From NCBI RefSeq assembly GCF_044704955.1, contig NW_027251778.1, forward strand, positions 124,001-188,000: a stretch of 64,000 nt of DNA. Direction: 5' to 3'. Source of the DNA: Pristiophorus japonicus (Eukaryota). Shown here piece by piece: positions 5,431-63,369 of the stretch. The notes under the pieces are model-generated. The model searched no databases and was not told where the DNA came from. It worked only from the letters and a program-made list of their open reading frames with translations. The position numbers were made by a program, and so were the translations under genes. Numbering within the stretch: the first letter of the stretch is position 1; the number at the start of each line of letters is the position of its first letter.

Positions 5431-5914
5431 TGTGAACAAATGAAGGAAAATCAATAAAAAAAAACTGAAGAATGAATGAATCAAAGAAGGTAATAAAATG
5501 ACTACTGGGGCTTTTTCCCATTACACAGTTGCGTTTGCCCACTGGGACAGCAGAGGGCACTCTCGTGCCAGGGATCACATCCGTGTCTGGAACCTGGTTC
5601 AATCGGAACACAATGAGGTGATTCGGTTCATTGATCCTCTCCCGCTGTTCAATCACACCATGGCTGTTCTGTACCTTACCCCATTAACCCACATTGCTCC
5701 CCTAAAATTTGATGCACTTACCCAGCAAAAACATAAGTGGTGAAATCTCCAATTGACCTCCAGTTTCTACGCCACATTTGGAAGGACGGAGTTGCAGAGT
5801 CTTATTGTCCTTTGTGTCAGTAAATGTTCCCAGATATGGCCCTGGATTGGCCGGGCTTTAATACTGAGCTGATGCCCCCTCATTCTGGACTGCCTCCTCA
5901 CCGGAGGCATTGGT

Positions 5915-6550
5915 TTGTCTCACAGGCAGTCCCTCGGAATCGAGGAAGACTTTCTTCCACTCCCAAAGTGAGTTCTCCGGTGGCTGAACAGTCCGATACG
6001 AGAACCACAGACCCCTGTCACAGGTGGGAGAGACATTCATCGAGGGAAGGGGTGGGTGGGGCTGGTTTGCCGCGCGCTCCTTCCGCTGCCTGCGCTTGGC
6101 CTCTTCAGGCTCTCGGCGTTGAGGCTCGAAGAACTCAACGCCCTCCCAGATGCACTTTCTCCACCTCGGGCGGTCTACAGCCAGGATCTCCCAGGTGTCA
6201 GTGGTGATGGCGCACTTTCCCAGGGTTGCTTTGAGGGTGTCCTTGTAACGCTCCCGTTGCCCACCTTTGGATCGTTTACCATGAAGGAGCTCCGCATAGA
6301 GCATTTGCTTAGGGAGCCTCGTGTCGGGCATGCGAACTATGTGGCCTGCCCAGCGAAGCTGATCGAGTGTGGTCAGTGCTTCAATACTGGGGATGTTAGC
6401 CTGGTCGGGGATACTGATGTTGGAGCGCCTGTCCTCCCAGGGCTGCAGTAACACCCGTCCTCCTGTATGGATCTGAGGCATGGACGATGTACAGAAGGCA
6501 CCTCAAATCGCCGGTGATATATCACCAAAGATGTCTGCGCAAGATCCTGC
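5915..6550 (-). mobile_element. RTE-clade LINE 3' fragment
   Basis: QLRWAGHIVRMPDTRLPKQMLYAEL..GKRSKGGQRERYKDTLK is typical of the RTE ORF C-terminus. Confidence 0.85.
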
Positions 6551-6629
6551 ATGGTTTGTCTATATCTAACCAGCCGAGACCCTTTTTAATGGTAAACATC
6601 TCCGTATGATCACTGTTCAATCTTCTGTA

Positions 6630-8470
6630 CTCATAGAAACATAGACATTTACAGGGCAGAAGGACGCCCTTTCGGACCATCGCGACAAAGCCACACGGCC
6701 CTCGGTCAGCAGCCCTGAAGGTTACATATTAACCTATGAACAATGACGGAAAGGCAAAGAGCACCCAGCCCAACCAGTCCACCGCACACAACTGCGACAC
6801 CCCTTATACTGAAATATTGTGACAGATTATTAAAATGGGAGGGGCGACGAGACCTGGGTGTCATGGTACCTCAGTCATTGAAGGTCGGCATGCAGGTACA
6901 GCAGGCGGTGAAGAAGGCAAATGGCGTACTGGCCTTCATAGCGACGGAATTTGAGTATCGGAGCAGGGAGGTCTTACTGCAGTTGTACCGGGCCTTGGTG
7001 AGACCTCACCTGGAGTATTGTGTGCAGTTTTGGTCTCCTAATCTGAGGAAGGACGTTCTTGCTATTGAGGGAGTGCAGCGAAGGTTCACCAGACTGATTC
7101 CCGGGATGGCGGGACTGACATATGAAGAAAGACTGAATCGGCTCAGCTTATACTCACTGGAGTTTAGAAGAATGAGAGGGGATCTCATAGAAACGTATAC
7201 AATTCTGACGTGACTGGACAGGTTAGATGCAGGAAGAATGTTCCCGAGGTTGGGGAAGTCCAGAACCAGGGGACACAGTCTAAGGATAAGGGGTAAGCCA
7301 TAAAAGACCGAGATGAGGAGAAACTTTTTCACCCAGAGAATTGTGAACCTGTGGAATTCTCTGTCACAGAAAGTTGTTGAGTGAAGTTGGTTGGACATAT
7401 TCAAAATGGAGTTAGATGTGGCCTTACATCTAAAGGGATCAGGGGGTATGGAGAGAAAGCAGGAATGGGGTGCTGAAGTTGAATGATCAGCCATGATCAT
7501 ATTGAATGGTGGTGCAGGCTTGAAGGGCCGAATGGCCTACTCCTGCAACTATTTTCTATGTTTCTACACTCCACCCCAACCGGAGCCATGTGATCTCCTG
7601 GGAGAGGCAAAAAACAGATAAAAACCCAGGCCAATTTAGGGAGAAAAAATCTGGGAAAATTCCTCTCCGACCCATCCAGGCGATGAAAACTAGTCCAGGA
7701 GATCATCCTGGCCGTATTCGATTCCCTGCAGTACTTATCATTATATCTGCTCCGTTCGACAAAAGGTCATCCAGTCTAACCCCAATTACCAGCTCTCGGT
7801 CCGTAACCCTGCTGGTTACTGCACTTTAAGTGCCCATCCAACCATCTCTTAAAAGTGCTGAGGGTTTCTGCATCCACCACTCTTCCAGGCAGCGAGTTCC
7901 AGATCCCCACAACCCTCTGCGTAAAGAATCCTCCCCCCCCCCCAGCCCCGTCAAATCCCCTCTAAACCTTCCACCATCTACCTTAAAACTATAGACCCTC
8001 CACCAATGGAAATAGGCCCTTACTATCCACTATATCCAGGCCTCTCAATATTTGTACACCTCATTGAGGTCTCCTCTCAACCTCCTCTGTTCCAATGCAA
8101 TATAAGCCCAGTCTATGCAACCTGTCCCCATCATTAACCCACTGAGCCCCGAAATAACACTGCAGAATCTGCGCTGTACTGCCTCCAAAACTAAACGTAC
8201 TGTTCCAGGTGGGTTCTGACCAGGAATCGGTACAACTGACATGCAACTTCCCGCCTTCTGTATTCCAGCAGCCTGAGCTAATGGGCCTTTTCTGAGACCT
8301 TTCTGTATCTACCTGCCAGCTTTTAGTGATGTGAGCGGCCTGAACCCTTAATCCCTCTGCAGCCCCACAGTTCCCAGCTTTACCCCATTGAGAACATGTT
8401 CTGACGGATCTTCATTGTGCTCACAGTGGGTGACCTCACCCTTGGCCACATTAAACTCCATCTACCTCTG
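6630..8470. mobile_element. Nested CR1 LINEs: older minus-strand copy interrupted by a younger plus-strand copy at ~6815-7565
   Basis: Plus strand reads RDLGV..KKANG..LVRPHLEYCVQFWSP..EGVQRRFTRLIPGM. Minus strand has a tail at 6630 and LEAVQRRF..RRLRGDL at ~8045-8240. Confidence 0.8.
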
Positions 8471-9509: not shown

Positions 9510-10124
9510 CCACCATGGCAGGAAACACCTGTGGATGGTGAGCCCTGTCGCGTTTATTCTGCAGCGCGAATGTGTTTTTGACAAGCAAAGACGGTTTAGA
9601 GTGAAAGTGAGAGATTAGGTGTAGAGTCACTGGAGAAGGTACAAAGAAAGATTAACAGGGATAACACCAGAATTGAGAGGTTCAAACTATCAGGAAATGC
9701 TCAACAGGCCGGGGCTGTTGTGTCCAGAAAAGAGAAGGCTGAGGGGTGAACCTGTCAGAGGTCTTTACAGATTAACTGTGTGTTTTATAGGGTAGGGCGG
9801 AGAGAAGCAAGATAGAAAGATAGGAAGATAGAAAGATAGGAAGATCAACAGAAAGGAAGATAGAAAGAATAAAAGAAAGAAAGGAAGAAAGAAAGACAGA
9901 GTCAAGAATGAAAGATTGTAAGCAGGAAAAAGAGCTGAAAGAAATATAGAGAAAAGAAAGATAAAAAGGCAGAACGATAGTAAAAAAAATAACGAATTTT
10001 TAGAAGGTGGAATGCAAGAAAGATACATTTTTAAACACTGACAGTGTATTTTCTTTCTTCACACGGATAGCAGAGGGCGTACTAGACCATGAAACAAACG
10101 AGTGCCCAGAACATAGTTCACAAT

Positions 10125-12010: not shown

Positions 12011-12562
12011 ATGTATCAGTTACTGGGACTGATGATCTTGTTTCAGCGTAAGGGACTTTTACACAATATNNNNNNNNNNNNNNNNNNNNNNNNNNNNNNN
12101 NNNNNNNNNNNNNNNNNNNNNNNNNNNNNNNNNNNNNNNNNNNNNNNNNNNNNNNNNNNNNNNNNNNNNNNNNNNNNNNNNNNNNNNNNNNNNNNNNNNN
12201 NNNNNNNNNNNNNNNNNNNNNNNNNCCCTGTTTACTGACCGCCTCCTCTCCCTGTCTTTTTCCCAGACGTGAGCTCACAGACTATCCACCAGACTCCAGC
12301 CGCTGTCTCCAGATTTCCCGGGGAAGGAGTGGAATTGAAATGCACTATGGAGGGAACAAGCAACCCTTACATGTACTGGTACAGACAGGACCCGGGGAGG
12401 GAGCCGCAGTTTATGTTTTACTCTGTGGGTACCAATGCCGTGGATCCAGACGGGCCGGTGGATTTTTTTACCGCACACCGACCGAATGAGAAGGAGTTTA
12501 ACCTGAAGTCCTCCGGCCTGCGGGCGGATCAGGCGGCCGTGTATTACTGCGCCTGGAGTCTG
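12011..12562 (+). CDS. TRBV: TCR beta V segment V2, family A (TRBV30-like), apparently functional; leader 12011-12047, V exon 12267-12562
   Basis: Leader MYQLLGLMILFQ|GTAAGG. Open V exon SQTIHQTP...CTMEGTSNPYMYWYRQ...FYSVG...YYCAWS. Confidence 0.9.
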
Positions 12563-12601
12563 CACAGTGACTCAGGGAGATGGAGGGACTCGACACAAAC
12601 C
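12563..12601 (+). other. 23-RSS of V2
   Basis: CACAGTG-23-ACACAAACC. Confidence 0.95.
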
Positions 12602-13209
12602 CCACCATGGCAGGAAACACCTGTGGATGGTGAGCCCTGTCGCGTTTATTCTGCACAGCGAATGTGGTTTTGACAAGCAGAGACGGGTTCGAGTTAAAGT
12701 GAGAGATTAGGTGTAGAGGCACTGGAGAAGGTTCAAAGACAGATTAACAGGGATAACACCAGAATTGAGAGTTTCAAACTATCATGAGAGTCTGAACAGG
12801 CTGGGGCTGTTGTGTCCTGAAAAGAGAAGGCTGAGGGGTGAACCTGTCAGAGGTCTTTACAGATTAACAATGTGTTTTATAGGGTAGGGCGTAGAGAAGC
12901 AAGGTAGAAAGATAGGGAGATAGAAAGAATGGAAGATAGGAAGAATAAAAGAAAGAATGGAAGATAGAAAGAAACACAGAAAGAAGGAATGAAAGAATGT
13001 AGCAGCAAAAAGAGTAGGAAAGAACGATATAGAAAATAAAGACAGATAGAAAGGCAGAACGATAGTTTAAATAAAAGAACGAATTTTTAGAAAGTTGGAA
13101 TGCAAGTAAAATACTTTTCTAAACACAGACAGTGTGTTTTCTATCTTCACAGGGACAGTAGAGGCCGCTCGAGACCATGAAATCCATCAGTGCCCAGGAA
13201 ATGGTTCAC

Positions 13210-14508: not shown

Positions 14509-15043
14509 ATGTATCAGTTAATGGTCTTGTTTCAGCGTAAGGGAAGTTTACAAAATATAAGTCTTNNNNNNNNNNNNNNNNNNNNNNNNNNNNNNNNNNN
14601 NNNNNNNNNNNNNNNNNNNNNNNNNNNNNNNNNNNNNNNNNNNNNNNNNNNNNNNNNNNNNNNNNNNNNNNNNNNNNNNNNNNNNNNNNNNNNNNNNNCA
14701 GAATGTCCCTCTTTACTAATCGCCTCCTCTCCCCGTCTCTTTCCCAGACGTGAGCTCACAGACCATCCGCCAGACTGTGGCCGCTGTCTCCAGATTTCCC
14801 GGGGAGTGAGTGGAATTGAAATGCACTATGGAGGGAGCAAGCACCCCTTACATGTACTGGTACAGACAGGACCCGGGGAAGGGGCCGCAGTTTATGTTTA
14901 TCTCCCAAATTGTACAAAGTGTGAATGCAGTGGGGCCGGTGGATGGCTTTACCGCCCAGTGACCGACTGGCAAGGAGTTTAACCTGAAGTCCTCCGGCCT
15001 CTGGGTGGATTATGCGGCCATGTATTACTGCGCCTGGAGTCCG
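14509..15043 (+). pseudogene. TRBV: TCR beta V pseudogene V3, family A; leader 14509-14536, V exon 14748-15043
   Basis: The leader lacks 9 nt relative to V1/V2. In-frame TGA stops at 14807-14809 and 14960-14962; otherwise colinear with V2. Confidence 0.9.
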
Positions 15044-15082
15044 CACAGTGACTCAGGGAGATGGAGGGGACCGACAGAAACC
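15044..15082 (+). other. 23-RSS of V3
   Basis: CACAGTG-23-ACAGAAACC. Confidence 0.9.
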
Positions 15083-15830: not shown

Positions 15831-17221
15831 TTATCTATCATATATATATATATTCATCTCTCTATACATCTATCTATCCATCTATNNNNNNNNNNNNNNN
15901 NNNNNNNNNNNNNNNNNNNNNNNNNNNNNNNNNNNNNNNNNNNNNNNNNNNNNNNNNNNNNNNNNNNNNNNNNNNNNNNNNNNNNNNNNNNNNNNNNNNN
16001 NNNNNNNNNNNNNNNNNNCTATATCTGCAGTTGGACACACTCGCAGAGTAGATGAACGTAAAACATAATGGTCACCAGGGGGAAGCAGTGATCACATTTA
16101 CGCACATTTGTTGCTCTCGTGTCATTGAGATGAAATGAAAGAATAAACCGTAGCTCGAAATAAAGAAAGTTTCATTGGATGAAAGAGAGACAAAAGTTGA
16201 AGTAACGGAATTAAAAAGGAAAGTAAGCGAATAGGAATGCAAGGAAAGGGTTTAGAATAAAAAGGACCAAGAAAGAAGGAAATAATGTAAGAAAGAGAAA
16301 GAGGAAATGATAGTGAAAGGAAGAAAAAAGGAGCGAAGGAATGAAAGCAACAAAGAAATCCAGAAATAACTTCAACGAGCAGGAGAGGGATAGACAGATA
16401 AATAATGAAAGGTAAAGCAAGGAAGAATTAAGGAATAAATGTCGAGAGTTTGATTCGATGAAAGGAAACAGGATTTACATAAAGAATGACAGAAATACAT
16501 TAATGACAATATGATAGAAAGCACGAAACACAGACAGAAAGATGGAAGAAAAGGGCAGAAAGTAAGACGGTTCGAAAGAACTAAAGAACGAGAGAGAACA
16601 AAAGAAAGATAGAAAGATAGAATGAAACAAAGAAGGAAAGGAAGAAAAGAAATAGGGAAAGAAAGAGAGACGAAAATAAGTATAGAAAGAAACAGAGAAA
16701 GAAAAAGAGAAAGAAAGAAGGAAAGAGAATTTAGAGTGAGAGAAAGCCGGAAGGGTAAAGAAGGAGAGAATGAAATAAAGGAAGTTAGAAAGAAGGATGG
16801 CAAGAGAGAATGAAAGTCAGGAGGAAAGAAAGAAGGATAGAAGGAGAGAATGAAAGCAAGCAGGAAAGAAAGAGAGAATGAAAGAAAGAGCTCTCCTTTA
16901 CTGATTAGATACAGAGTAAAGCATATAATTTACAGGTTGGATACAGAGTAAAGCCTCCGTGTTGTTGTGGGTTTAAGGAACCCCAGACTCTACCATCAAA
17001 GGGAGGAGACTGGGCGCCGATTACCCAGAGTCCCCATTAGCCCCGCCCCGGGAATGAGCAGTCCCGATGAGGGAGCCAATAAACTGGTGAAGAGAGATTG
17101 GCCCCTCCCACTTGCATATTCACCATGAAGAGCAGCGGGTCAGTAAATGCCACAGTGCCCAGGACTGTGAGATATTCTGAGGTTGCACACCGAGAACCCC
17201 CGGATCTCCCTCCCCCCAGAG

Positions 17222-18053
17222 ATGCCTGTGTCCCAGCTCTGGCTTGTGTTGCTGGTGTTAACGGGTCAGGTGGAGCTGGGCTGTGAGATCTCAGCGATCC
17301 TCACTTTAATTTCCCCGTGTGTCCCTTCACACCGCGGGCTGGTCCAGATTCTCTGCCCCTCGGTTTATAGCGTGTTCTCTCTCTCTCTCTTTCTCTCTTT
17401 CTCTCTCTCTGTCTCTCTCTGGCTCTCTCACTTTCTCGTTTCTATTGCTCTCTCCTCATGTGCTCCTTCTCATCCTCCGGCGGTGTGTAGATTGTCGCTC
17501 GGTTTATCTCTCTCTCTTTATCTCATTCTCTCTCTGTCTTTGCCTCTCTTTATCTCTGTCCGCCCCGCTGTCTCAGTCCCTCCCTCACTCTCCCTCTCGC
17601 TCTCTCCGTCGCGTTTTGTCTCTCTGCCTCCCTCGCCCCCTCTCTCCCTCACTCTCTTTACCCTCCTTTACCGCTTCATGGCGGGTGTTTATATGAAATT
17701 TCTCCCTGGGTTTATCGCTATCTCTAACTCTCTCTCTCTTTCTCGGTTTTACAGATGTGGGGGCCGTGCTGATCCAACAGACCCGCGCTTCCATATCCAA
17801 TTCCCTGGACACTCCGGTTAGCATCGAGTGCCTTTACACAGAAGCAACAGCTAGCTCCTATTTCTACTGGTACCGGTGGCATCCTGACCGGGAGCCTCAG
17901 AACCTTTTCATTTCCAGAAACGCCAAAATGGTCACTCCCTCCGGTGAGGTGGACGGATTCACCGCCAGGAGACCCGACAACACCCACTTCTACCTGGAGA
18001 CCTCCGGCCTGCGGGCGGATCAGGCGGCCGTGTATTACTGCACCTGGAGTCTG
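17222..18053 (+). CDS. TRBV: TCR beta V segment V4, family B; leader 17222-17264, V exon 17755-18053
   Basis: Leader MPVSQLWLVLLVLT+g with donor GTCAGG (weaker than the GTAAGG of most paralogs). Open V exon DVGAVLIQQT...SIEC...YFYWYRWHPDREP...YYCTWS. Confidence 0.8.
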
Positions 18054-18092
18054 CACAGTGACTCAGGGAGATGGAGGGGCTAGACACAAACC
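18054..18092 (+). other. 23-RSS of V4
   Basis: CACAGTG-23-ACACAAACC. Confidence 0.95.
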
Positions 18093-18659
18093 CCACCATG
18101 GCAGGAAACACCTGAGGATGGTGAGCCGTGTCGTGTTTATTCTGCAGAACCAATGTGTGTTTGACAAGCAGAGACGGGTTAGAATAAAAATGAGAGAGGT
18201 TGCAAAGAAAGATTATCAGCGATAACACCAGAATTGAGCGGTTGAAACTATCAGGAAATATTGAAGAGGCCGGGGCTGTTGTGTCCAGAAAAGAGAAGGC
18301 TGAGGGGTAAACCTGTCAGAGGTCTTTACAGATTAACAAAGTGTTTAATAAGGTTGGGCGGAGAGAAGCAAGACCGAAAAAAAGGAAGATAGAAAGAATG
18401 GAAGATCGGAAGAATAAAAGAAAGAAAGGAAGAGAGAAAGAAAGACAGAATGAAAGAATGTAACAGGAAAAGATAGAGAAAATAAAGAAAGATAAAAAGG
18501 CAGAAAGAAACTAAATCAAAAAGAACGAATTTTTAGAAAGTTGCAATGCAAGAAAATACTTTTTTAAACACTGACAGTATGATTTCTTTCTCCACAGGGA
18601 CAGTAGAGGGAGCTCTAGACCATGAAACACAACAATGCCCAGAACATGGTTCACAATAG

Positions 18660-21767: not shown

Positions 21768-23298
21768 ATGCAAATAGCGTTCCTTGTATCTACTCTTCCA
21801 CTTTTCCTGTTGGGTAAGTAGCCTGAAATCACATCGGATTATTTTTTTAGAGCGATGTGTTGCATTCGAGAGTAGACTTCACTAAACTAGCAAGGTTCGA
21901 AGTGTGGCTGAGTGGTTCGAAATTCGTCTGTGGCTTTTCGCATTGACAGAGTTAAAGATGAGGCTAAGACCCAGGGAATATAGATAGTCTAAGTGAGTGG
22001 GCAAGAACCTGGCGAATGGAATATCATGTGGTGAAATGTGAAGTTATCCACTTTGGCAGGAAAAATAGAAAAGCCGAGTATTTTTTAAACAATGAGAGAC
22101 TGGGAAATGTTGGTGTTCAGAGGGACCTGGGTGTCCGTGAACACCATTCACTGAAAGGTAACATGCAGCTACAACAAGCGTTTAAGAAAGCAAATGGTAT
22201 GTTGGCCTTTATTACAAGAGGATTTGAGTATATGAGTGAAGTCGGCTTACTGCAATTATATCAGGCTCTGGTGAGACCGCACCTGGAATATTGTGTGCAG
22301 TTTTGCTCTCCTTACCTAAGCAAGGATATGCGTACCATAGAGGGAGTGCAACAAAGGTTCACCAGACTGATTCCTGGGATGGGGGGATTGTCCTATGAGG
22401 TGAGATTGAGCAGACTAGGCCGATATTCTCTGGAGATCAGAAAAATGAGAGGTGATCTCCTTGAAACCTACAAAATTATTACAGGTATTGGCAGGGTAGA
22501 TACAGTTAGGATGTTTCCCCAGGCTGGGGTGTCTAGAACCAGAGGTCGAACAGTCTCAGAATAAGGGGTCGGCCATTTAGGACTGAGATGGTGAGGAAGT
22601 TCTTCACTCAATGGCTGGTGAATCTTTGGGATTCTGTAACCGAGCCAGCTGTGGAGGCTCTGTCTTTGAGTATATTCGAGACAGAGATAGATTTTTGGAT
22701 AGTAAGCGAATCGAGGGATCGGGCGGGAAATTAGAGTTGAGGTAGATGATCAGCCATGATCTCATTGGATGTCGGTGCAACTCGAGGGGCCGAATGGCCG
22801 ACTCCTGCTCCTGATTCTTATGTTCTTATCCTATTTAATGTTGGGTGTGGGGAAAGGACTGGGAAAAGGGCATGGGGAGGGGAGTGGGTCTAACTGGACA
22901 GCCCAACCAACGACCTGGTACAGGCACGATGGGCCGAAGGGCCTCATTCCCTGCAATTGGATTTGATGAATTCACTTCATTTGTTTTGTTTGTAGATTTA
23001 ACACACGGGTTGCGGCCGCTGCAAAGCCCCCTCACACTGGTGGTTGCAGAAAACAAGCTTGCAACAATAAGTTGCTATGAAGATGCCTCAACTCCTCAAT
23101 CGATGCTCTGGTACAGTCAACCCGCCGGCCAGGGTCTGGTGTTAATCGGCTACATTCAGGTCGGAGGAACGATTCATTACGAGGATAAGGATCAAACCCG
23201 CTTTGAAATTACAGGAAACGGCGAAAGAAACTCTGCTCTGAAGCTTCCCAGAGCCGCCCCTGCCGACACGGCCGTGTATTACTGTGCTACGTGTACTG
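21768..23298 (+). CDS. TRBV: TCR beta V segment V5, family C (single copy); leader 21768-21813, V exon 22996-23298
   Basis: Leader MQIAFLVSTLPLFLL+g|GTAAGT, acceptor ttgtAG. V exon DLTHGLRPLQSP...ISC...MLWYSQPAGQGLVLIGY...DTAVYYCATCT. The intron carries a CR1 fragment. Confidence 0.85.
21960..22830 (+). mobile_element. CR1 LINE 3' fragment inside the V5 intron
   Basis: KCEVIHFGRKN..QRDLGV..LVRPHLEYCVQF..MRGDL plus tail. Confidence 0.9.
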
Positions 23299-23337
23299 CA
23301 CAGTGTTACAGACACTGTGAACGTCCGATCAAAAACC
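23299..23337 (+). other. 23-RSS of V5
   Basis: CACAGTG-23-TCAAAAACC. Confidence 0.9.
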
Positions 23338-24209: not shown

Positions 24210-25271
24210 ATGTATCTGTTACTGGGTCTCATGATCTTATTTAAATGTAAGTGATTATTTCACGCAGTAATCGTTTTAAATATCCGTTCCTTACTGTTTC
24301 TTTCCTTCTTTCGTTCATTCTATCTTTCTCTCTTCCTTTCTTTTTCTCATTCTTTACTTCTTTACTACTTTCTTTATCTCTTTATCTCATTATTCACTTC
24401 TTTCTTTCGCCCCTTCTCTCATTCTTTACTTCTTTCTTGCTATCGTTCTTTCTTTAATTCTCTCTTTCTCTCCCTCTCTCTTTGTCTCATTCGTTGTTTC
24501 TCCATATCTTTCTTTCTAACTTTCTTNNNNNNNNNNNNNNNNNNNNNNNNNNNNNNNNNNNNNNNNNNNNNNNNNNNNNNNNNNNNNNNNNNNNNNNNNN
24601 NNNNNNNNNNNNNNNNNNNNNNNNNNNNNNNNNNNNNNNNNNNNNNNNNNNNNNNNNNNNNNNNNNNNNNNNNNNNNNNNNNNNNNNNNNNNNNNNNNNN
24701 NNNNNNNNNNNNNNNNNNNNNNNNNNNNNNNNNNNNNNNNNNNNNNNNNNNNNNNNNNNNNNNNNNNNNNNNNNNNNNNNNNNNNNNNNNNNNNNNNNNN
24801 NNNNNNNNNNNNNNNNNNNNNNNNNNNNNNNNNNNNNNNNNNNNNNNNNNNNNNNNNNNNNNNNNNNNNNNNNNNNNNNNNNNNNNNNNNNNNNNNNNNN
24901 NNNNNNNNNNNNNNNNNNNNNNNNNNNNGAATGTCCCTGTTTATTGATCACCTCCTCCCCCCGTCTCTTTCCCAGACGTGAGCTCACAGACGATCCGCCA
25001 GACTCCGGCCGCTGTCTCCAGATTTTCCGGGGAGGGAGTGGAATTAAAATGCACTGTGGAGGGAGCAAGCACCCCCGACATGTACTGGTACAGACAGGAC
25101 CCGGGGAAGGGGCCGCAGTCCATGTTTTACTCCAGCGGCACCAATCACATCAATCCAGAGGGGATGGTGGATGGTTTTACCGCCGAGCGCCGGAATGACA
25201 AGGAGTTTAACCTGAAGTCCTCCGTCCTGCGGGCGGATCAGTCGGCCGTGTATTACTGCGCCTGGAGTCTG
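24210..25271 (+). CDS. TRBV: TCR beta V segment V6, family A, apparently functional; leader 24210-24246, V exon 24976-25271
   Basis: Leader MYLLLGLMILFK+t|GTAAGT. Open V exon ending YYCAWS. Confidence 0.88.
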
Positions 25272-25310
25272 CACAGTGACTCAGGGAGATGGAGGGGCCC
25301 GACATAAACC
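25272..25310 (+). other. 23-RSS of V6
   Basis: CACAGTG-23-ACATAAACC. Confidence 0.9.
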
Positions 25311-27127: not shown

Positions 27128-28178
27128 ATGAACCCCCGGATCTCCATCCCCGCAGAGACGCCGGTGTCCCAGCTCTGGCTTGTGTTGCTGGTGTTAACTG
27201 GTAAGGTGGAGCTGGGCTGTGAGATCTCAGCAATCGTCACTTTAATTTCCCCGTGTGTCCCTTCACACCGCGGGCTGGTCTCGATTCTCTCCCCCTCGGT
27301 TGAGAGTGTGCTCTCTGTCTGTCTACCTCCCCCTCTCTCCCACCCTCACTGCCTCTCTCTCTCTCTGTCTGTCTGTCTCCCTCTCTCTGTCTTCCACACA
27401 GTCTGCCGCTCTCTCTCTCTCCCTGCCACTCTTTGTCTGTTTGTCTTACAGCCTGACTGTCCATTTATATTACCTTTGTCTCTCATTCTCTATCTGTCTC
27501 TCTCTCCCTCTCTTTCTCTTTCTCTCTCTCTCTCTTTCTCTCTCTCTGTCTGTCTCTCTGCCTCTCTCAGTTTCTCGTTTCGAGCATTCTCCTCATCTGC
27601 TCCTTCTCATTCTCCGGTGACGTGTTGATTGTCGTCGGTTTATTTCTCTCTCTGTATCTCATTCTCCCTCTCTCTTTGCCGCTCTCGCTCGGTCCCGGTA
27701 GCTCTTCCCCCCATCACTCTCTCTCACTCTCTCTGTCTCGCTCTGTCTCTCTGCCTCTCTCGCCCCCTCTCTCCTTCACTCTCTCTCCCGTCGTCCGCCC
27801 ATTCATGGCGGGTGTTTATATGCAATTTCTCCCTGGGTGTACCTCCATCTCTAACTCTCTCTCTTTCTCGGTTTTACAGATGTGGGGGCCGTGCTAATCC
27901 AACAGACTCCTGCTTCCATTTCCAAATCCCCGGTCACTGCGGTTAGCATCGAGTGCCTTTACACAGAAGCAACACTCGGCTCCTATTTCTACTGGTACCG
28001 GTGGCATCCTGACCAAGAGCCTCAGAACCTTTTGTATTCCAACGTTCCTGGAACGGTCATTCCGTCCGGTGAGGTGGGTGGATTCACCGCCAGGAGACCC
28101 GACAATACCCACTTCTACCTGGAGACCTCCGGCCTGCGGGCGGATCAGGCGGCCGTGTATTACTGCGCCTGGAGTCTG
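27128..28178 (+). CDS. TRBV: TCR beta V segment V7, family B, apparently functional; leader 27128-27200, V exon 27880-28178
   Basis: Leader MNPRISIPAETPVSQLWLVLLVLT+g|GTAAGG. Open V exon with both Cys and the Trp, ending YYCAWS. Confidence 0.88.
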
Positions 28179-28217
28179 CACAGTGACTCAGGGAGATGGA
28201 GGGGCCCGACACAAACC
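28179..28217 (+). other. 23-RSS of V7
   Basis: CACAGTG-23-ACACAAACC. Confidence 0.95.
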
Positions 28218-31451: not shown

Positions 31452-31467
31452 ACAGTAGAGGGCGCTC
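31452..31467 (+). promoter_or_regulatory. CTCF-consensus-like motif ACAGTAGAGGGCGCTC (identical at 56922 and 63308; variants at 5547, 10067, 13155, 18600, 39845)
   Basis: Matches the CCASYAGRKGGCRS core by eye and recurs ~0.55 kb after V RSSs. Confidence 0.55.
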
Positions 31468-34105: not shown

Positions 34106-34144
34106 CACTGTGGTTCAGAGTCATTCGGCGCCTTGACAAAAACC
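34106..34144 (+). other. 23-RSS of V9
   Basis: CACTGTG-23-ACAAAAACC (consensus nonamer, variant heptamer). Confidence 0.88.
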
Positions 34145-35936: not shown

Positions 35937-35975
35937 CACAGTGACACTGGGGGCCGGGGCGGTGCAACACAAACC
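35937..35975 (+). other. 23-RSS of V10
   Basis: CACAGTG-23-ACACAAACC. Confidence 0.92.
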
Positions 35976-38619: not shown

Positions 38620-39241
38620 ACTTTTCCGTCTCTGTCCCTCTCTCCTCATGTGCTCCTTCTCATCCTCCGGTGATGTGTAGATTGTCGCTCGGTTTATCTC
38701 TCTCTCTCACTGCATCTCATTCGCTAACTGTCTTTGCCTCTCTCTCCCTGTCAGTCCCGCTGTCTCACTCCCTCCCTCACTCTCTCTCTCTCTCTCTCGC
38801 TCTCTCCGTCTCGCTCTGGCTCTGTACCTCTCTCGCGCCCCCTCTCCCTCACACACTCTCCCCTCCTCTGGTGGGTGTCTATAAGCAATTTCTCCGTAGG
38901 TTTATCTCTATCTCTAACTCTCTCTCTTTCTCGGTTTTACAGATGTGGGGGCCGTGCTGATCCAACAGACCCCCGCTGCCATATCCAATTCCCCAGGCAC
39001 TCCGGTTAGCATCGAGTGCCTTTACACAGAAGCAGCAGCTGGCTCCTATTTCTTCTGGTACCGGTGGCATCCTGACCGGGAGCCTCAGAATCTTTTCTCT
39101 TCCAACTACGCTGAAATGGTCACTCCCTCCGGTGAGGTGGATGGATTCACCGCCAGGAGACCCGACAAAACCCACTTCTACCTGGAGACCTCCGGCCTGC
39201 GGGCGGATCAGGCGGCCGTGTATTACTGCGCCTGGAGTCTG
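38166..39241 (+). CDS. TRBV: TCR beta V segment V11, family B, apparently functional; leader 38166-38238, V exon 38943-39241
   Basis: Leader MNPRISLPPEMPVSQLWLVLLVLT|GTAAGG. Open V exon ending YYCAWS. Confidence 0.9.
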
Positions 39242-39280
39242 CACAGTGACTCAGGGAGATGGAGGGGCTCGACACAAACC
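39242..39280 (+). other. 23-RSS of V11
   Basis: CACAGTG-23-ACACAAACC. Confidence 0.95.
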
Positions 39281-41484: not shown

Positions 41485-42087
41485 ATGTATCAGTTACTGC
41501 GTCTGATGCTCTTGTTTCCGCGTAAGGGACTTTTACACAATGTAAGTNNNNNNNNNNNNNNNNNNNNNNNNNNNNNNNNNNNNNNNNNNNNNNNNNNNNN
41601 NNNNNNNNNNNNNNNNNNNNNNNNNNNNNNNNNNNNNNNNNNNNNNNNNNNNNNNNNNNNNNNNNNNNNNNNNNNNNNNNNNNNNNNNNNNNNNNNNNNN
41701 NNNNNNNNNNNNNNNNNNNNNNNNNNNNNNNNNNNNNNNNNNNNNNNNNNNNCTATTTATTGACCGTCTCCTCTCCCCGTCTCTTTCCCAGACGTGAGCT
41801 CACAGACCATCTGCCAGACTCCGGCTGCAGTCTCCAGATTTCCCGGGGAGGGAGTGGAATTGAAATGCACTGTGGAGGGAGCAAGCAACCCTTACATGTA
41901 CTGGTACAGACAGGACCCGGGGAAGGGGACGCAGTTTATGTTTATCTCCCCACCTGTACAATGTGTGAATCCAGAGGTGCCGGTGGACAGGTTTACCGCC
42001 AAGCGACCGAATGACAAGGAGTTTAACCTGGAGACCTCCGGCCTGCGGGCGGATCAGTCGGCCGTGTATTACTGCACCTGGTGTCTG
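41485..42087 (+). CDS. TRBV: TCR beta V segment V12, family A, open frame with three extra Cys; leader 41485-41521, V exon 41792-42087
   Basis: Leader MYQLLRLMLLFP|GTAAGG. V exon SQTICQ...VQCVNP...YYCTWCL. The RSS is variant. Confidence 0.75.
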
Positions 42088-42126
42088 CACAATGATTCAG
42101 GGAGATGGAGGGGCTCGACACAAAAC
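42088..42126 (+). other. Variant 23-RSS of V12
   Basis: CACAATG-23-ACACAAAAC. Confidence 0.8.
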
Positions 42127-46881: not shown

Positions 46882-47819
46882 ATGAACCCCCGGATCTCCC
46901 TCCCCCCAGAGATCACTGTGTCCCAGCTCTGGCTTGTGTTGCTGGTGTTAACGGGTAAGGTGGATCTGGGCTGTGAGATCTCAGCGATCCTCACTTTAAT
47001 TTCCCCGTCTGTCCCTTCACAGCGCGAGCAGGTCTAGATTCTCTCCCCCTCGGTTTATAGAGTGTCCTCTGTCTATGTGTCTGCCTCTCTCCCTCTGTCT
47101 CCCTCCCTCTGTGCCGCTATCTCTCTACCTGCTACTCGATCTGTTTGTCTTACTGCGTTACTGTCCAGCTATGTTTCCCTTCTCTCTCTCTCTCTCTCTT
47201 TCTCTTACTATCTTGTTTCTATCCCTCACTCCTCGTGCACCTTCTCATCCTCCAATGATGTGTAGATTGTTGATTGGTTGAACTATCTTTCTGTATCACA
47301 TTCTCTCTGTCTTTGCCTCGCTCGTTCTGTCCGTCGCGCTGTCTCACTCCCTCCCTAATTCTATCTCTCACTCTCTCAGTCGCGCTTTGTCTCTCTGTCT
47401 CTCTCGCCCAGTCTCTGCCTCACTCTCTCTACCCTCCCCTGCCCCATCATGGCGGATGTTTATATGCAATATCTCCCTGGTTTTATCGCTATCTCTAACT
47501 CTCTCTCTTTCTCGGTTTTACAGATGTGGGGGCTGTGCTGATCCAACAGTCTCCCGCTTCCATTTCCAATTCCCCGCGCACCCCGGTTAGCATCGAGTGC
47601 CTTTACACAGAAGCAGGTGCTGTCTCCCGTTTCTACTGGTACCGGTGGCATCCTGACCGGGAACCTCAGAACCTTTTCTCTTCCTACTCTGGAACGGACA
47701 CTCCCAGCGGGGAGATGGACGGGTTCACCGCCAGGAGACTCGACAACACTCACTTCTACCTGGAGACCTCCAGCCTGCGGGCGGATCAGGCGGATGTGTA
47801 TTACTGCGCCTGGAGTCTG
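46882..47819 (+). CDS. TRBV: TCR beta V segment V13, family B; leader 46882-46954, V exon 47524-47819
   Basis: Leader MNPRISLPPEITVSQLWLVLLVLT|GTAAGG. Open V exon ending YYCAWS, with CDR2 one codon shorter than its paralogs. Confidence 0.87.
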
Positions 47820-47858
47820 CACAGTGACTCAGGGAGATGGAGGGGCTCGACACAAACC
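47820..47858 (+). other. 23-RSS of V13
   Basis: CACAGTG-23-ACACAAACC. Confidence 0.95.
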
Positions 47859-51869: not shown

Positions 51870-52599
51870 ATGCGATTCCATTTCCTCCTCACTGCTGGGT
51901 TCTTTCTGACGCTGAGTATGTTAAGATCCACCTTTCGATCACAGTGCTATAATTGCTCAACCGAGAGGGTTATTCAGTGATCAAAATAATGTCCTGTGGT
52001 GGTGAAATACTGCGGTCTAATGGATAAGCAATCAATTAATTAACGTCAGACAACTCAATAATCTGCTATATTTTTAACCTGAAATGCTATGAATATAACT
52101 TCCATTGTTTATAATTGATTGAACTTTGCAAAGTCCTCTGTTTTATTTTACAGTTGCATTGTTTCTGCTGCTTGTTGGGAATTCGGGAAAGGCTAAATAT
52201 CTATCGATAAATCGGCCCAACGCCAACATGTATCACTGAGAGTTTCACTTTAACGATGCTAATTCTGTTGCCCCGAATTTCTGTTTCCAGGTGGTTCCCG
52301 CGGCGAGTTGCTGTATCAGTGGCCCCGCTCGCTCAGCGTACGCCAGCGAGAATCCGCCGAGCTGAACTGTTTTCAGAACGGGACGGCTCGCAGTAACATG
52401 CTGTGGTATCGTCATTACGCCGGCGGAGGATTGGCGTTAATCGGGTCTATTTACCGAAGCAGCGATGCTCAGTATGAAAAGGGTTTTGAGAGCGGGTTCA
52501 CCATCACCAGGACCGTGGAAAATAAGAAATCCACACTGAAGATCGAGACAGTCGAAACCAGTGACCTGGCGCTGTATTTCTGTGCCACTGCTGATGGGA
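51870..52599 (+). CDS. TRBV: TCR beta V segment V14, family D; leader 51870-51915, V exon 52291-52599
   Basis: Leader MRFHFLLTAGFFLTL+a|GTATGT. V exon paralogous to V9, ending YFCATADG. Confidence 0.87.
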
Positions 52600-52638
52600 C
52601 ACAGCGGCTCAGAGTCAGTCGGCAGCTTGACAAAAACC
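52600..52638 (+). other. 23-RSS of V14
   Basis: CACAGCG-23-ACAAAAACC. Confidence 0.9.
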
Positions 52639-53715: not shown

Positions 53716-54524
53716 TCAAAATGCACTGTTCTGGTCTCCATATACCGTTGTTAGACAACAATTAGAGCATTTTATGATTATCAAAGGTTAGACTTACAGA
53801 GGAACCTTTGACTTGAGGGGGAATACCAGAACCAGAGGCCACAAATATAAGATAGTCACTAATAAGACCAATAGGGAGTTGAGGAGTACCCTCTTCACTC
53901 AGAGAGTGGCGAGGATGGGGAACTTGCTACCACAAGGATTGCTTGAGGCAAATACGGCGGAAGTTGGGTAAAGACAGGAGGGAGAAAGGAATAGCAGGTT
54001 CTGCTGATAGAGTGAGATGGAGAGGGGTGGACGAAGAACCTAAGAGCATAAAAAGCAGCCTGGACCAGTTGTGGCGAAGGGCCCGATTCCGTGGAGTAAA
54101 TTAGATGTAATTCAACATAAAAACGGCAACATCTGAGGGAGGGCAGAACATAATTGGAAGGCGCGTCAATTTCATGCCTGACTTGAAAACACCTCCCAAA
54201 TAATGTAATGGGGTGTTAATAAAACCTGGGTTATTGCCACTAGCTGGCACTGTAGCTTCACTGTAGCCTGGGCCATGGTCTACCTTTGACACAGAATGAG
54301 AAAGGCCGCGGCAGATGTACGAGTCCCCTTAGTGCTCAACTCTGCTGGTTCTGTAACCCTTTAAGTTCCCGACCATTTGGCACAAAAACGCAGTTAGACT
54401 TCCTCATGTCTGCCGCTTTCTCGTGATGCGTTATGACCCGCGACAGCTTAACAATACATCATCCACGTTATTTATTTTACTGTTTGTTTTGATTTGCAAA
54501 TGGTTCTTATTGATGTAATTGAGT

Positions 54525-55714: not shown

Positions 55715-56330
55715 ACTTTCTAATTTCTATCTCTCACTCCTCATGTGCTCCTTCTCATCCTCCAGTGATGTATAGATTGTCGGTCTGTTTATCTCTCACT
55801 CGATCTCATTCTCTCTCTGTCTTTCCCGCTTTCTCTCTGTCTGTCCCGCTGTCTCACTCCCTCCCTCACTCTCTCTCTCGCTCTCTGCGTCGCGCTCTGT
55901 CTCTCTGCCTCTCTCGCCCCCTCTCGCTCACTCTCTCTTCCCTCCTCCGACCCTTCAAGGCGGGTGTTCATATGCAATTTCTCCCTGGGTTTATCTCGAT
56001 CTCTAACTCTCTCTCTTTCTCGGTTTTACAGATGTGGGGGCCGTGCTGATCCAACAGACCCCCGCTTCCATATCCAATTCCCCGGGCACTCCGGTTAGCA
56101 TCGAGTGCGTTTACACAGAAGCAACAGCTAGCTCCTATTTCTACTGGTACCGGTGGCATCCTGACCGGGAACCTCAGAACCTTTTCTATTCCATCGTCCC
56201 TGGATCGGTCACTCCCTCTGGTGAGGTGGACGGATTCACCGCCAAGAGACCCGACAACACCCACTTCTACCTGGAGACTTCCAGCCTGCGGGCGGATCAG
56301 GCGGCCGTGTATTACTGTGCCTGGAGTCTG
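55296..56330 (+). CDS. TRBV: TCR beta V segment V15, family B, apparently functional; leader 55296-55368, V exon 56032-56330
   Basis: Leader MNPRISLPPEIPVSQLWLVLLVLT|GTAAGG. Open V exon ending YYCAWS. Confidence 0.9.
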
Positions 56331-56369
56331 CACAGTGACTCAGGGAGATGGAGGGGCTCGACACAAACC
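56331..56369 (+). other. 23-RSS of V15
   Basis: CACAGTG-23-ACACAAACC. Confidence 0.95.
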
Positions 56370-56984
56370 CCACATGGCAGCAAACACCTGTGGATGGTGA
56401 GCCCTGTCGCGTTTATTCTGCAGAGCGAACATGATATTGACAAGCAGAGACGGGTTAGAGTTAAAGTGAGAGATTAGGAGTAGAGGCACTGGAGAAGGTG
56501 CAAAGGAAGATTAACTGGGATAACTCCAGAATTGAGAGGTTCAAACTATCAGGAAAAGCTGAACAGGCCGGGGCTGTTGTGTCGTGAAAAGGGAAGGCTG
56601 AGGGGTGAACATGTCAGAGGTCTTTACAGATTAACAATGTGTTTTATAAGGTAGGGCGTAGAGAAGTGAGATAGAAAGATTGGAAGATGGAAAGAAAGGA
56701 AGATCGGAAGAATAAAAGAAAGAAAGGAAGAGAGAAAAGAAGACAGAAGGAAAGATAGAAAGAATGTAAGCAGGAAAAACAGTTGGGAAGAAAGATAGGG
56801 AAATTAAACAAAGATAGAAAGGCAGAATGATCGTAGAAATAACAACGAATTTTTAGAAAGTTACGAATGCAAACAAAATACTTTCTTAAACACTGAAAAT
56901 GTGTTTTCTTTATCCACACGGACAGTAGAGGGCGCTCTAGACCATGAAACACACATGTGCCGAGAAAACGGTTCACAATCGGTA

Positions 56985-61007: not shown

Positions 61008-61781
61008 ATGTGTCATTTACTGGGACTGATGATCTTGTTTCAGCGTAAGGGACTTTTTCAAAATATGAGTATTCNNNNNNNNNNNNNNNNNNNNNNNNNN
61101 NNNNNNNNNNNNNNNNNNNNNNNNNNNNNNNNNNNNNNNNNNNNNNNNNNNNNNNNNNNNNNNNNNNNNNNNNNNNNNNNNNNNNNNNNNNNNNNNNNNN
61201 NNNNNNNNNNNNNNNNNNNNNNNNNNNNNNNNNNNNNNNNNNNNNNNNNNNNNNNNNNNNNNNNNNNNNNNNNNNNNNNNNNNNNNNNNNNNNNNNNNNN
61301 NNNNNNNNNNNNNNNNNNNNNNNNNNNNNNNNNNNNNNNNNNNNNNNNNNNNNNNNNNNNNNNNNNNNNNNNNNNNNNNNNNNNNNNNNNNNNNNNNNNN
61401 NNNNNNNNNNNNNNNNNNNNNNNNNNNNNNNNNNNNNNNNNNNNNNNNNNNNNNNNNNNNNNNNNNNNNNNNNNTGTCCTTGTTTACTGACCGCCTCCTC
61501 TCCCTGTCTCTTTCCCAGATGAGAACTCACAGACTATATGCCAGACTTCAGCCGCTGTCTCCAGATTTCCTGGGGAGGGAATGGAATTGAAATGCACTGT
61601 TGAGGGAACAAGCAACCCCGACATGTACTGGTACAGACAGGACCCCGGGAAGGAGCCGCTGTCAATGTTCATCTCCACAACTGTACAAAGTGTAAATCCA
61701 TTTTACTGGCGAGAGACCGAAAGGCAACGATTTTAACCTGTACTGTTCCGGCCTGTGGGCGGATCAGACGTCCGTGTATTA
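61008..61781 (+). pseudogene. TRBV: TCR beta V pseudogene V16, family A, truncated, no RSS; leader 61008-61044, V exon from 61519
   Basis: Leader MCHLLGLMILFQ|GTAAGG. A frameshifting deletion follows ...VQSVNP (~61700). Homology stops at gtgtatta before the second Cys, and a CR1 element follows. Confidence 0.88.
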
Positions 61782-61789
61782 GAAGATAA

Positions 61790-63110
61790 AAACATAAGAA
61801 CATAAGAATTAGGAACAGGAGTAGGCCATCTAGCCCCTCGAGCCTGCTCCGCCATTCAACAAGATCATGGCTGATCTGGCCGTGGACTCAGCTCCACTTA
61901 CCCACCCGCTCCCCGTAACCCTTAATTCCCTTATTGGTTAAAAATCTATCTATCTGTGATTTGAATACATTCAATGAGCTCGGCCTCAACTGCTTCCCAG
62001 GGCAGAGAATTCCACAGATTCACAACCCTCTGGGAGAAGAAATTCCTTCTCAACTCGGTTTTAAATTGGCTCCCCCGTATTTTGAAGCTGTGCCCCCTAG
62101 TTCTAGTCTCCCCGACCAGTGGAAACAACCTCTCTGCCTCTATCTTGTATAGCCCTATGATTATTTTAAATGTTTCTATCAGATCACCCCTCATCCTTTT
62201 GAACTCCAACGAGTAAAGACCCAGTCTACTCAATCTATCATCATAAGGTAACCCCCCTTATCTCTGGAATCAGCCTAGTGAATCGTCTCTGTACCCCCTC
62301 CAAAGCTAGTATATCCTTCCTTAAGAAAGGTGAACAAAACTGCACGCAGTATTCCAGGTGCGGCCTCACCAATACCCTGTACAGTTGCAGCAGGACCTCC
62401 CTGCCTTTGTACTCCATCCCTCTCGCAATGAAGGCCACCATTCCATTCGCCTTCCTGATTACCTGCTGCACCTGCAAACTAACTTTTTGGGAAGCGGTCG
62501 AGGGGGTCGTTCAGCCAGACTGCCTGCCCCTTTTCTGCGCATACATCCGCTCCATGGTGTCCTTGGAGATGGAGCACGCGGTGTCCACCGGTACGCTCGT
62601 GGCCTTCCGCGAGAGGTGGGCACCGGAGGGACTGGAGTGCATCATCACGCCCGGCAACCAAATTTTAATATGATTTTATGTTTTTAAGTTAATTTGTTTT
62701 AATTGCCGGTGCTTTTAGTGTTCCCCTCCCCTTTTATAGGGGGCACTTAGAGAAAAAATATGTTTTTATGGCTAAAAACCCTCCCCCCCAGAAAATACCA
62801 CAAAAAAATAAAAGGGCCTGTAAATGTTTGGTGTTTCCCTCAGATCGGGGGGGCACAGTTTAATGTTTTTTGTTTACTCCCAAAAAGAGTTTCATGCACA
62901 AAAAAAAACTAAAAAGCGTTTCATGCACAAGGACTCCCAGGTCCCTCTGCACCGCAGCATGTTGTAATTTCTCCCCATTCAAATAATATTCCCTTTTACT
63001 ACTTTTTTCCCAAGTGGATGACCTCACACTTTCGGACATTGTATTCCATCTGCCAAACCTTAGCCCATTTGCATAACCTATCTAAATCTCTTTGTAGCCT
63101 TTCTGTGTCC
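61790..63110 (-). mobile_element. CR1 LINE 3' fragment containing a nested insertion
   Basis: Tail aacataagaacataag; RLGLYSLEF..RRNFFSQRVVNLWNS; KANGM..LVRPHLEYC. Confidence 0.9.
62491..62889 (+). mobile_element. Probable Tx1/L1-clade LINE 3' fragment nested in CR1
   Basis: LPLFCAYIRSMVSLEMEHAVSTGTLVAFRERWAP resembles Tx1 ORF2 C-termini and is followed by an AT-rich UTR. CR1 colinearity resumes at gtttcatgcacaa. Confidence 0.6.
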
Positions 63111-63369
63111 TCCTCCTGCAGGGAGAATGAAAGACAGAAGGAAAGAATGAAAAAATATCAGCAGGAAAAAGAGTAGGATGTAAAGATAGAGAAAATAAAG
63201 AAAGATAGCAAGGCAGAACGATAGTAAATACGAACAAATTTTTAGAAATTTGGAATGCAAGTAAATACTTTCTAAACAGTGACAGTGTGTTTTCTGTTCC
63301 CACAGGGACAGTAGAGGGCGCTCTAGACCATGAAACACACCAGTGCCCAGAACATGGTTCACAATCGGA

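What the first reader, a model, noticed from the sequence alone, without database searches (positions are those of the whole stretch)
5547..63323. Array of co-oriented CTCF-like motifs behind the V segments
Seen: + strand matches to the CTCF core (CCASYAGRKGGCRS) at 5547 (acagcagagggcactc), 10067, 13155, 18600, 31452, 39845, 56922 and 63308 (acagtagagggcgctc type, ~0.5-0.57 kb after the nonamer where an RSS precedes). A non-homologous set lies at 16072, 25719 and 28628 (tggycasyagggggcagca consensus, ~0.41 kb after V6/V7), and one more at 49002 (acgcgagatggcgctg). The 5547 copy keeps the motif although its surroundings have diverged. Established: co-oriented V-associated CTCF elements shape loop extrusion and RAG access in mouse Igh and Tcrb. 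Inference: this architecture may already exist in a cartilaginous-fish TRB locus, with motif decay tuning V usage.
Basis: partly seen in the sequence, partly recalled or inferred. Interest (0 to 1): 0.72.

Follow-up and report, generated by a model that had tools for sequence, protein, structure and literature searches.

The report
Same-facing CTCF motifs in shark TCR-beta
In an apparent shark T-cell-receptor beta gene array, many variable gene pieces are separated by a same-facing DNA motif predicted to bind the chromosome-looping protein CTCF; most copies descend from two ancestral sites and likely help fold the locus as in mice, but binding is untested.

Summary
The motifs are real. All 12 listed sequences are where stated; 10 of 12 pass p<1e-4 and 8 pass p<1e-5. 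Two listed sites (10067, 28628) are broken. The window is a cartilaginous-fish TCR-beta V array with 16 V segments.

The array is not 12 independent observations: 11 sites are copies of two ancestral spacer sites (A, 8 copies; B, 3). Once collapsed, the strand bias is 3-4 versus 0 (p 0.06-0.13). Still, both unrelated spacers carry a strong forward site 0.4-0.56 kb past the RSS (0 of 2000 permuted matrices do this). The old paralog at 5544 keeps the motif with only tolerated changes.

Against: recent copies are no better conserved than their flanks, and broken V genes keep strong motifs while three intact ones have weak motifs. Tuning of V usage is therefore unsupported. Spacer type follows the downstream gene, not the V in front.

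Best reading: interspersed, co-oriented CTCF elements like mouse Tcrb (0.6), not RSS-fixed Igh-type sites. The scan noted RSS-adjacent versions in other shark windows before.

The parts
5544..5562 (+). Family A CTCF-like motif, old diverged paralog, no V in front within the window; upstream of X-family V1
   Evidence: 17.0 bits, p 1e-6; 17 of 19 identical to A majority, both changes tolerated
10064..10082 (+). Family A copy behind V1, decayed
   Evidence: 5.0 bits, p 3.5e-4; 557 bases after nonamer
13152..13170 (+). Family A copy behind V2, weakened
   Evidence: 10.4 bits, p 3.7e-5
16069..16087 (+). Family B motif behind pseudogene V3
   Evidence: 17.6 bits; 989 bases after nonamer, a CR1 piece lies between
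18597..18615 (+). Family A copy behind V4
   Evidence: 14.1 bits
25716..25734 (+). Family B motif behind V6, strongest site in the window
   Evidence: 20.1 bits, p 1e-7; 408 bases after nonamer
28625..28644 (+). Family B copy behind V7, broken by one extra G (real or assembly slip not tested)
   Evidence: best score 3.7 bits; alignment
31449..31467 (+). Family A copy behind pseudogene V8; equals the family majority
   Evidence: 17.0 bits
39842..39860 (+). Family A copy behind V11
   Evidence: 16.3 bits
48999..49017 (+). Single-copy, moderate CTCF-like site 1.14 kb behind V13; could also be read as a YY1-type site (motif recalled, not scored)
   Evidence: 12.0 bits, p 1.7e-5; no second copy in the window
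54234..54252 (+).
   Evidence: 15.5 bits, p 2.5e-6; one-mismatch consensus match
56919..56937 (+). Family A copy behind V15
   Evidence: 18.9 bits; covered by short-read contigs
63305..63323 (+). Family A copy behind broken V16, whose RSS and proximal flank are replaced by LINE pieces
   Evidence: 17.0 bits
9174..9509 (+). V1, family X (ends YYCAWSL), open frame, 23-RSS at 9471
12266..12601 (+). V2, family X, open frame, 23-RSS at 12563
14747..15082 (+). V3, family X pseudogene (two stops), 23-RSS at 15044
17754..18092 (+). V4, family Y, open frame, 23-RSS at 18054
23010..23337 (+). V5, family Z, 23-RSS at 23299; no strong motif behind it
24975..25310 (+). V6, family X, open frame, 23-RSS at 25272
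27879..28217 (+). V7, family Y, open frame, 23-RSS at 28179
30558..30896 (+). V8, family Y, likely pseudogene (first Cys lost, heptamer begins TAC)
33811..34144 (+). V9, family W, 23-RSS at 34106; no strong + motif behind it
35658..35975 (+). V10, decayed remnant with 23-RSS at 35937; no motif behind it
38942..39280 (+). V11, family Y, open frame, 23-RSS at 39242
41791..42126 (+). V12, family X, weak RSS at 42088; B-type proximal flank but no B motif found
47523..47858 (+). V13, family Y, open frame, 23-RSS at 47820; B-type proximal flank, no B motif found
52305..52638 (+). V14, family W, 23-RSS at 52600
56031..56369 (+). V15, family Y, open frame, 23-RSS at 56331
61518..61784 (+). V16, family X pseudogene (frameshift, cut by a LINE, no RSS)

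Best explanation
These are predicted CTCF-binding elements interspersed in a cartilaginous-fish TCR-beta V array, likely descended from one forward-facing site in each of two ancestral intergenic spacers and likely acting as one-way cohesin barriers facing D-J-C, as in mouse Tcrb. Shown: the motifs, their strand, their two-family origin and their position. Inferred: the ancestral unit was an X-gene / spacer B / Y-gene / spacer A doublet. Crossovers in the roughly 130-bp block shared by both V families (exon end, RSS and the next bases) moved each spacer together with the promoter of the following gene, so most X and Y segments inherited a site 0.4-0.56 kb past the RSS. Inferred and untested: CTCF occupies the strong copies in thymocytes, they loop to convergent sites near D-J-C, and the array acts collectively and redundantly, which lets single copies decay.
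For: (1) Nine of nine p<1e-5 hits are on +; seven of seven one-mismatch consensus matches are on +. (2) Two non-homologous spacers each carry a forward site above 13 bits within 620 bases of the nonamer: 0 of 2000 column-permuted matrices do this on one strand of both (A alone 8, B alone 14). Scanning the real, duplicated flanks, 1 of 1500 permuted matrices reaches the observed 5 (620 bases) or 6 (1200 bases) of 15 flanks at p<1e-5. (3) The old paralog 5544 keeps 17 of 19 motif bases against 75 of 137 flank bases (p 0.005; against the downstream flank alone p 0.20), and its two changes are tolerated ones (p 0.045). (4) The 15 distinct substitution types seen in window copies plus short-read contigs are milder than random (p 0.03). 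(5) Family A is low-copy: 19 contigs laid per whole-genome run. (6) Context: all bound CTCF sites in mouse Tcrb and Igh V regions point to D-J-C (PMC5859386; PMC10772921), and a skate shows the CTCF orientation bias at domain borders (PMC10115646).
Against: (1) Among seven recent A copies the core deviates at 7 of 105 cells against 96 of 1086 in the flanks (p 0.59), and a neutral simulation reaches the observed mean score in 15% of runs. The window's own nine substitution types are not significantly mild (p 0.2); the contig set is biased toward copies that align. (2) Collapsed to lineages, the strand count is 3:0 (p<1e-5), 4:0 (p<2e-5) and 7:5 (p<1e-4); none is significant. (3) Each of the three B copies carries its own core defect, and B conservation is not significant (47 of 57 against 218 of 298 pairwise). 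(4) Family A has A where most CTCF sites have the first core C, and no site matches the consensus exactly. (5) There is no consistent CpG enrichment around the sites. (6) No binding, Hi-C or D-J-C sequence was available.
Confidence: 0.6

Rival explanations
1. Passengers: one or both ancestral spacers held a CTCF-like sequence (by chance, or once functional), tandem duplication copied it, and today's copies drift neutrally.
For: The core is not better conserved than the flanks in recent copies. Damaging changes occur in 10064, 13152 and 28625. Broken V3, V8 and V16 keep strong motifs, as expected if duplication was simply recent. Two of 200 permuted matrices gave 9 or more one-strand hits in this repetitive window.
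Against: Two unrelated spacers both carry strong forward sites at similar distance (0 of 2000). The 5544 copy is an island of conservation. Substitutions lean toward tolerated positions.
Confidence: 0.24
2. Bound sites with a local job: they insulate each V promoter from the neighbouring gene, LINE pieces and minisatellites, or mark the promoter side of the next gene, rather than anchoring loops to D-J-C.
For: Spacer type follows the downstream gene (A before X 5 of 5, B before Y 3 of 3; p 0.018) and not the upstream one (p 1.0). A sites sit about 40-60 bases before a LINE-tail-derived 43-bp minisatellite. Mouse Igh has an upstream class for which neighbour insulation was suggested (PMC6746451), and several mouse Tcrb sites lie at or near promoters (PMC5859386).
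Against: Distance to the next leader varies (1.1-4.1 kb) more than distance to the RSS. Co-inheritance with the downstream gene follows from where crossovers fall and needs no function.
Confidence: 0.1
3. RSS-activating sites of the mouse proximal VH kind, whose strength sets the use of the V in front.
For: Distance to the nonamer is tight in A (507-564) and in two B copies (408, 410). Part of the interval is an old CR1 piece and simple repeats, so the sites may once have been closer.
Against: Mouse RSS-associated sites lie 17-19 bp from the nonamer and are typically absent from nonfunctional genes (PMC6746451). Here nothing within 100 bases of any of 15 nonamers scores above 5.8 bits, 240-400 non-repeat bases remain between RSS and site, and broken genes keep the strong motifs.
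Confidence: 0.04
4. The motif is part of a dispersed transposon, or the conserved A block is a splice acceptor of an unnoticed exon.
For: The A motif sits between a CR1 remnant and a CR1-tail minisatellite and follows a pyrimidine-rich tract ending in CAG in five copies.
Against: A has only 8 hits in the window, none inside other LINE copies, and about 19 contigs genome-wide. The AG is missing in 3 of 8 copies.
Confidence: 0.02

Closest known systems
Interspersed V-region CTCF-binding elements of mouse Tcrb (PMC5859386 Table 2 and orientation passages; PMC10772921 passages)
   Same: TCR-beta V array; all strong sites face one way, predicted toward D-J-C; not every V has one; not at a fixed short distance from the RSS.
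   Different: Mouse sites are shown to be bound (18 among 33 V genes) and to converge on three D-J-side sites; several lie at promoters. Here there are motifs only, they come from two duplicated ancestors, they are denser (9 strong sites in 64 kb) and they lie 0.4-0.56 kb past the RSS.
RSS-associated CTCF sites of mouse and human IGH clan II/III VH genes (PMC6746451; PMC4914699)
   Same: Downstream of a V RSS, one orientation, inherited with gene families.
   Different: Those lie 17-19 bp (human 19 or 48 bp) from the nonamer, are more conserved than the spacer and are typically missing from nonfunctional genes. None of the three holds for the recent copies here.
Upstream/intergenic CTCF sites of the distal mouse VH region (PMC6746451)
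   Same: Co-oriented, away from the RSS, within 8 kb upstream of the next leader, multiplied by duplication.
   Different: Mouse RSS-unassociated sites lie at least 800 bp from an RSS; here most lie 0.4-0.56 kb away. Different locus and lineage.

Membership tests
TCR-beta V array | V-set exons with 23-bp-spacer RSS in one orientation | tested here: met
   14 canonical 23-RSS on +, none on -, plus V8's variant RSS
TCR-beta V array | V families join TCR-beta J-C | tested here: met
   Shark homologs P0007 and P0008 (family X) and P0010 (family W) are gene models with a J and a C-TM region; P0007's best solved match and most of the 60 listed are TCR beta chains. Indirect: D-J-C is not in the window.
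CTCF-binding element | Core motif above usual thresholds | tested here: met
   10 of 12 listed sites pass p<1e-4 and 8 pass p<1e-5 with a recalled matrix; one-mismatch consensus matches
CTCF-binding element | Occupied by CTCF in vivo or bound in vitro | not testable with these tools
   None of the 8 runs listed has a library label marking it as ChIP or ATAC
CTCF-binding element | Motif conserved above its flanks | tested here: inconclusive
   Yes for the old paralog 5544 (p 0.005, or 0.20 against the downstream flank only); no for 7 recent A copies (p 0.59) and 3 B copies (p 0.18)
Tcrb-type interspersed V CBEs | All strong V-region sites share one orientation | tested here: met
   9 + versus 0 - at p<1e-5, but only 3-4 independent lineages
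Tcrb-type interspersed V CBEs | Convergent with sites flanking D-J-C | not testable with these tools
   No genome is held; D-J-C lies outside the window
Tcrb-type interspersed V CBEs | Anchor loops and affect recombination | not testable with these tools
   Needs Hi-C and repertoire data
Igh RSS-associated CBEs (clan II/III) | Core 17-19 bp (human 19 or 48 bp) from the nonamer | tested here: not met
   Distances 408-1598; best score within 100 bases of 15 nonamers is 5.8 bits
Igh RSS-associated CBEs (clan II/III) | Present at functional genes, typically absent at nonfunctional ones | tested here: not met
   Broken V3, V8, V16: 17.6, 17.0, 17.0 bits; intact V1, V2, V7: 5.0, 10.4, 3.7 bits

The most novel reading that the evidence does not exclude
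The one-way CTCF design of V arrays was already working in the TCR-beta locus of the last common ancestor of sharks and mammals, and sharks maintain it by a built-in mechanism. Crossovers in the shared exon-end/RSS block hand nearly every new X or Y segment a forward CTCF site regardless of its family, and gain or decay of individual copies then weights which V segments reach D-J.
Probability: 0.18. Interest if true: 0.7.

Novelty: new member of a known kind. Interest (0 to 1): 0.42.

Why it matters
If the sites are bound, loop-extrusion-guided V(D)J assembly at TCR-beta would extend to cartilaginous fishes, the earliest-branching living jawed vertebrates. Sharks offer a natural contrast, because their TCR loci are long arrays while their antibody genes are small clusters (recalled knowledge). 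The window supplies matched strong and decayed paralogs (56919 versus 10064; 25716 versus 28625) for a direct binding and usage test. The layout itself is known from mouse and co-orientation is partly guaranteed by duplication, so a specialist would find it plausible rather than surprising.

Tried and rejected
Genome-wide search: no genome is held, so D-J-C, convergent sites and background rates could not be examined.

Look-alike windows in other genomes: none found.

Sequencing runs: 8 listed, no RNA holder listed, no library labels. Four holders are one sample and may be the source, so they are not independent support. A run under a second organism label has one 98-base contig over the 56919 site, with 1 tolerated change in the motif and 4 listed changes outside it; it is too close and too shallow (depth 2.4) to show selection. 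Contig depth peaks over the motif, but contig depth and alignment seeding make this unreliable, and the window's own damaged copies did not appear; it was not used as evidence.

Whether the extra G at 28625-28644 is real was not tested, because both read-laying runs went to family A.

RSS-adjacent site: a degenerate forward match 17-18 bases after the nonamer of four A-type flanks (V1, V2, V8, V15; 1.9-2.5 bits, p about 1e-3) is too weak to call; it overlaps an E-box.

Upstream zinc-finger 9-11 extension: none seen by eye at the expected spacing (motif recalled, not scored).

CpG enrichment around the sites: none consistent. TCR-beta promoter CRE decamer (recalled): no convincing match. Transposon and splice-acceptor readings: rejected.

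Supplements were not opened; those of PMC6746451 (chicken, dog, chimpanzee scans; other loci) and PMC5859386 may bear on how widely the layout is already described.
Full report
What the window is. It holds 16 V segments on the + strand: 14 with a canonical 23-bp-spacer RSS, V8 with a TAC heptamer, and V16 without an RSS. They fall into families X and Y (both ending YYCAWSL; 12 segments), W (2), Z (1) and one remnant. Closest proteins come from catshark, bamboo sharks, a sevengill shark and a manta ray at 52-67% identity. Three shark gene models carry these V types in front of a J and a constant region, and the one I searched matches TCR beta chains best. The locus is therefore a cartilaginous-fish TCR-beta V array, with D-J-C most likely downstream. 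That is an inference, since no genome is held.

The observation. All 12 sequences are present. Eight listed sites pass p<1e-5, two more pass p<1e-4 (13155, 49002), and two fail: 10067 has lost the most invariant C and 28628 has an extra G. Window-wide there are 9 + and 0 - hits at p<1e-5 (the ninth, 54234, was not listed) and 14 + and 5 - at p<1e-4. Local dinucleotide shuffles give about one per strand at p<1e-5. The published consensus, which does not depend on my matrix, gives no exact match, 7 one-mismatch matches all on + (chance 0.86), and 12 + versus 8 - at two mismatches.

Pseudo-replication. Eight sites are paralogs (family A; 79-89% flank identity among the seven recent copies), three are paralogs of a second site (family B), and 48999 and 54234 are single. 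Collapsed, the strand counts are 3:0, 4:0 and 7:5 at rising p thresholds (p 0.125, 0.06, 0.39). The fairer test runs column-permuted matrices over the real duplicated sequence. Five of 15 flanks have a + hit at p<1e-5 within 620 bases and 6 of 15 within 1200, none on -, and 1 of 1500 permutations reaches either count (6 of 1500 at p<1e-4). Both spacers, each represented by its best copy, are hit on the same strand in 0 of 2000 permutations. Over the whole window, 2 of 200 permuted matrices gave 9 or more one-strand hits, a reminder that repeats inflate counts. The real signal is two unrelated spacers that each hold a strong forward site about half a kilobase past the RSS.

How the array was built. 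A flanks are equally alike whether their V genes belong to the same family (exon 5' part 71-91% identical) or to different families (51-60%). X and Y share the last 60 bases of the exon and the RSS almost letter for letter (85 of 90 bases for V1 versus V15). Spacer type follows the next gene: where an X or Y gene follows, A leads into an X promoter 5 of 5 times and B into a Y promoter 3 of 3 times (p 0.018), with no relation to the gene in front (p 1.0). Left out of that count are two A spacers followed by Z or W genes, one that leaves the window, and two B-type flanks (V12, V13) in which no B motif was found. The simplest history is an X-B-Y-A doublet amplified by crossovers in the shared block. 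This also explains 5544: it is an older A spacer in front of X-family V1. In the A spacer an old CR1 piece lies about 105-295 bases past the nonamer (translated match in 5 of 6 copies), followed by GA-rich repeats, the motif and a 43-bp minisatellite derived from a LINE tail.

Selection. The evidence is mixed. For: 5544 keeps 17 of 19 motif bases while 75 of 137 flank bases match (p 0.005; p 0.20 against the downstream flank alone), and both changes are at degenerate positions (p 0.045). The 15 substitution types from window copies plus short-read contigs are milder than random (p 0.03), but the window's own nine are not (p 0.2), and the contig set favours copies that align. Against: in seven recent A copies the core deviates at 6.7% of cells and the flanks at 8.8% (p 0.59); 36 of 156 flank windows are as conserved; a neutral simulation matches the mean score in 15% of runs. 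Each B copy has its own core defect, although their majority scores 19.9 bits. Motif strength does not follow gene integrity: broken V3, V8 and V16 score 17-18 bits, and intact V1, V2 and V7 score 5.0, 10.4 and 3.7 (p 0.26).

Mechanism. Forward-reverse pairs of the CTCF motif dominate loop anchors (PMC5291250, passages), so + strand sites would face downstream. In mouse Tcrb, 18 bound sites among the V genes all face D-J-C; several are at promoters and two near RSSs (PMC5859386, passages and Table 2). Scrambling the Trbv1 site impairs loops and recombination (PMC10772921, passages). A skate shows the orientation bias at domain borders (PMC10115646, passages). I therefore read the strong copies as likely bound, one-way barriers acting collectively, with redundancy allowing single copies to decay (0.6). 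Passenger copies of ancestral sites (0.24) and local insulation (0.1) are the main rivals. The Igh RSS-associated class is not met: those sites lie 17-19 bp from the nonamer and are typically absent from nonfunctional genes (PMC6746451, passages; PMC4914699, passages), whereas nothing within 100 bases of these 15 nonamers exceeds 5.8 bits.

Novelty. Searches of the held library for CTCF with shark, T cell receptor and V segments and with antigen receptor, shark and V gene gave 0 papers. Searches gave 3, 5 and 5 listings, none on shark antigen-receptor CTCF sites by title or abstract start; one search listed 15 of 61. Most subscription papers are not held and supplements were not opened, so absence from print is not established. 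The scan itself has noted RSS-adjacent CTCF-like motifs (20-37 bases from the nonamer in those that give a distance) in six windows of other genomes and one other piece of this genome. These are unchecked notes and not independent support. This window differs in having only RSS-distal sites.

Verdict. The motifs are real and exceed chance in a modest but defensible way. They are probably CTCF elements of the mouse Tcrb type, and the usage-tuning claim has no support here. New member of a known kind; interest 0.42.

Noticed in passing
window, V1 9410-9530 versus V15 56270-56390 and the other X/Y genes: Two V families only 51-60% alike in their 5' exon share an almost identical exon end, RSS spacer and nonamer (85 of 90 bases), pointing to homogenisation by crossover or gene conversion at the RSS; the spacers are swapped at this block.
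   Followed up: partly
15-17 bases after the nonamer of V1-V4, V6-V8, V11-V13, V15: An E-box (CANNTG) is kept in 11 of 11 X/Y genes with an RSS; the two variants differ only in the free middle positions. It may be an E-protein site or a passenger of the homogenised block; in four A-type flanks it overlaps a very weak forward CTCF-like match.
   Followed up: partly
window 10129-11184, 13217-13974, 18662-18951, 31514-32508, 39907-40535, 44216-45778, 56989-57416, 58390-60017, 63370-63972: A 43-bp minisatellite derived from a CR1-type LINE tail follows the A motif and varies from about 7 to 39 copies.
   Followed up: partly
window 8540-8570, 11839, 41175-41343, 60643-60860: X-family promoters carry CCAAT-type boxes and a 27-28-bp tandem unit; no convincing CRE decamer of the mammalian V-beta promoter type (recalled motif) was found.
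   Followed up: no
   Followed up: partly
window 36070-37851 and 43281-44166: A 22-bp tandem array (81 copies) behind remnant V10 and a GC-rich 12/24-bp array behind V12, both at places where the usual spacer is missing.
   Followed up: no
window 34038: One weak 12-spacer RSS-like match inside the V9 exon (three mismatches), probably chance.
   Followed up: no
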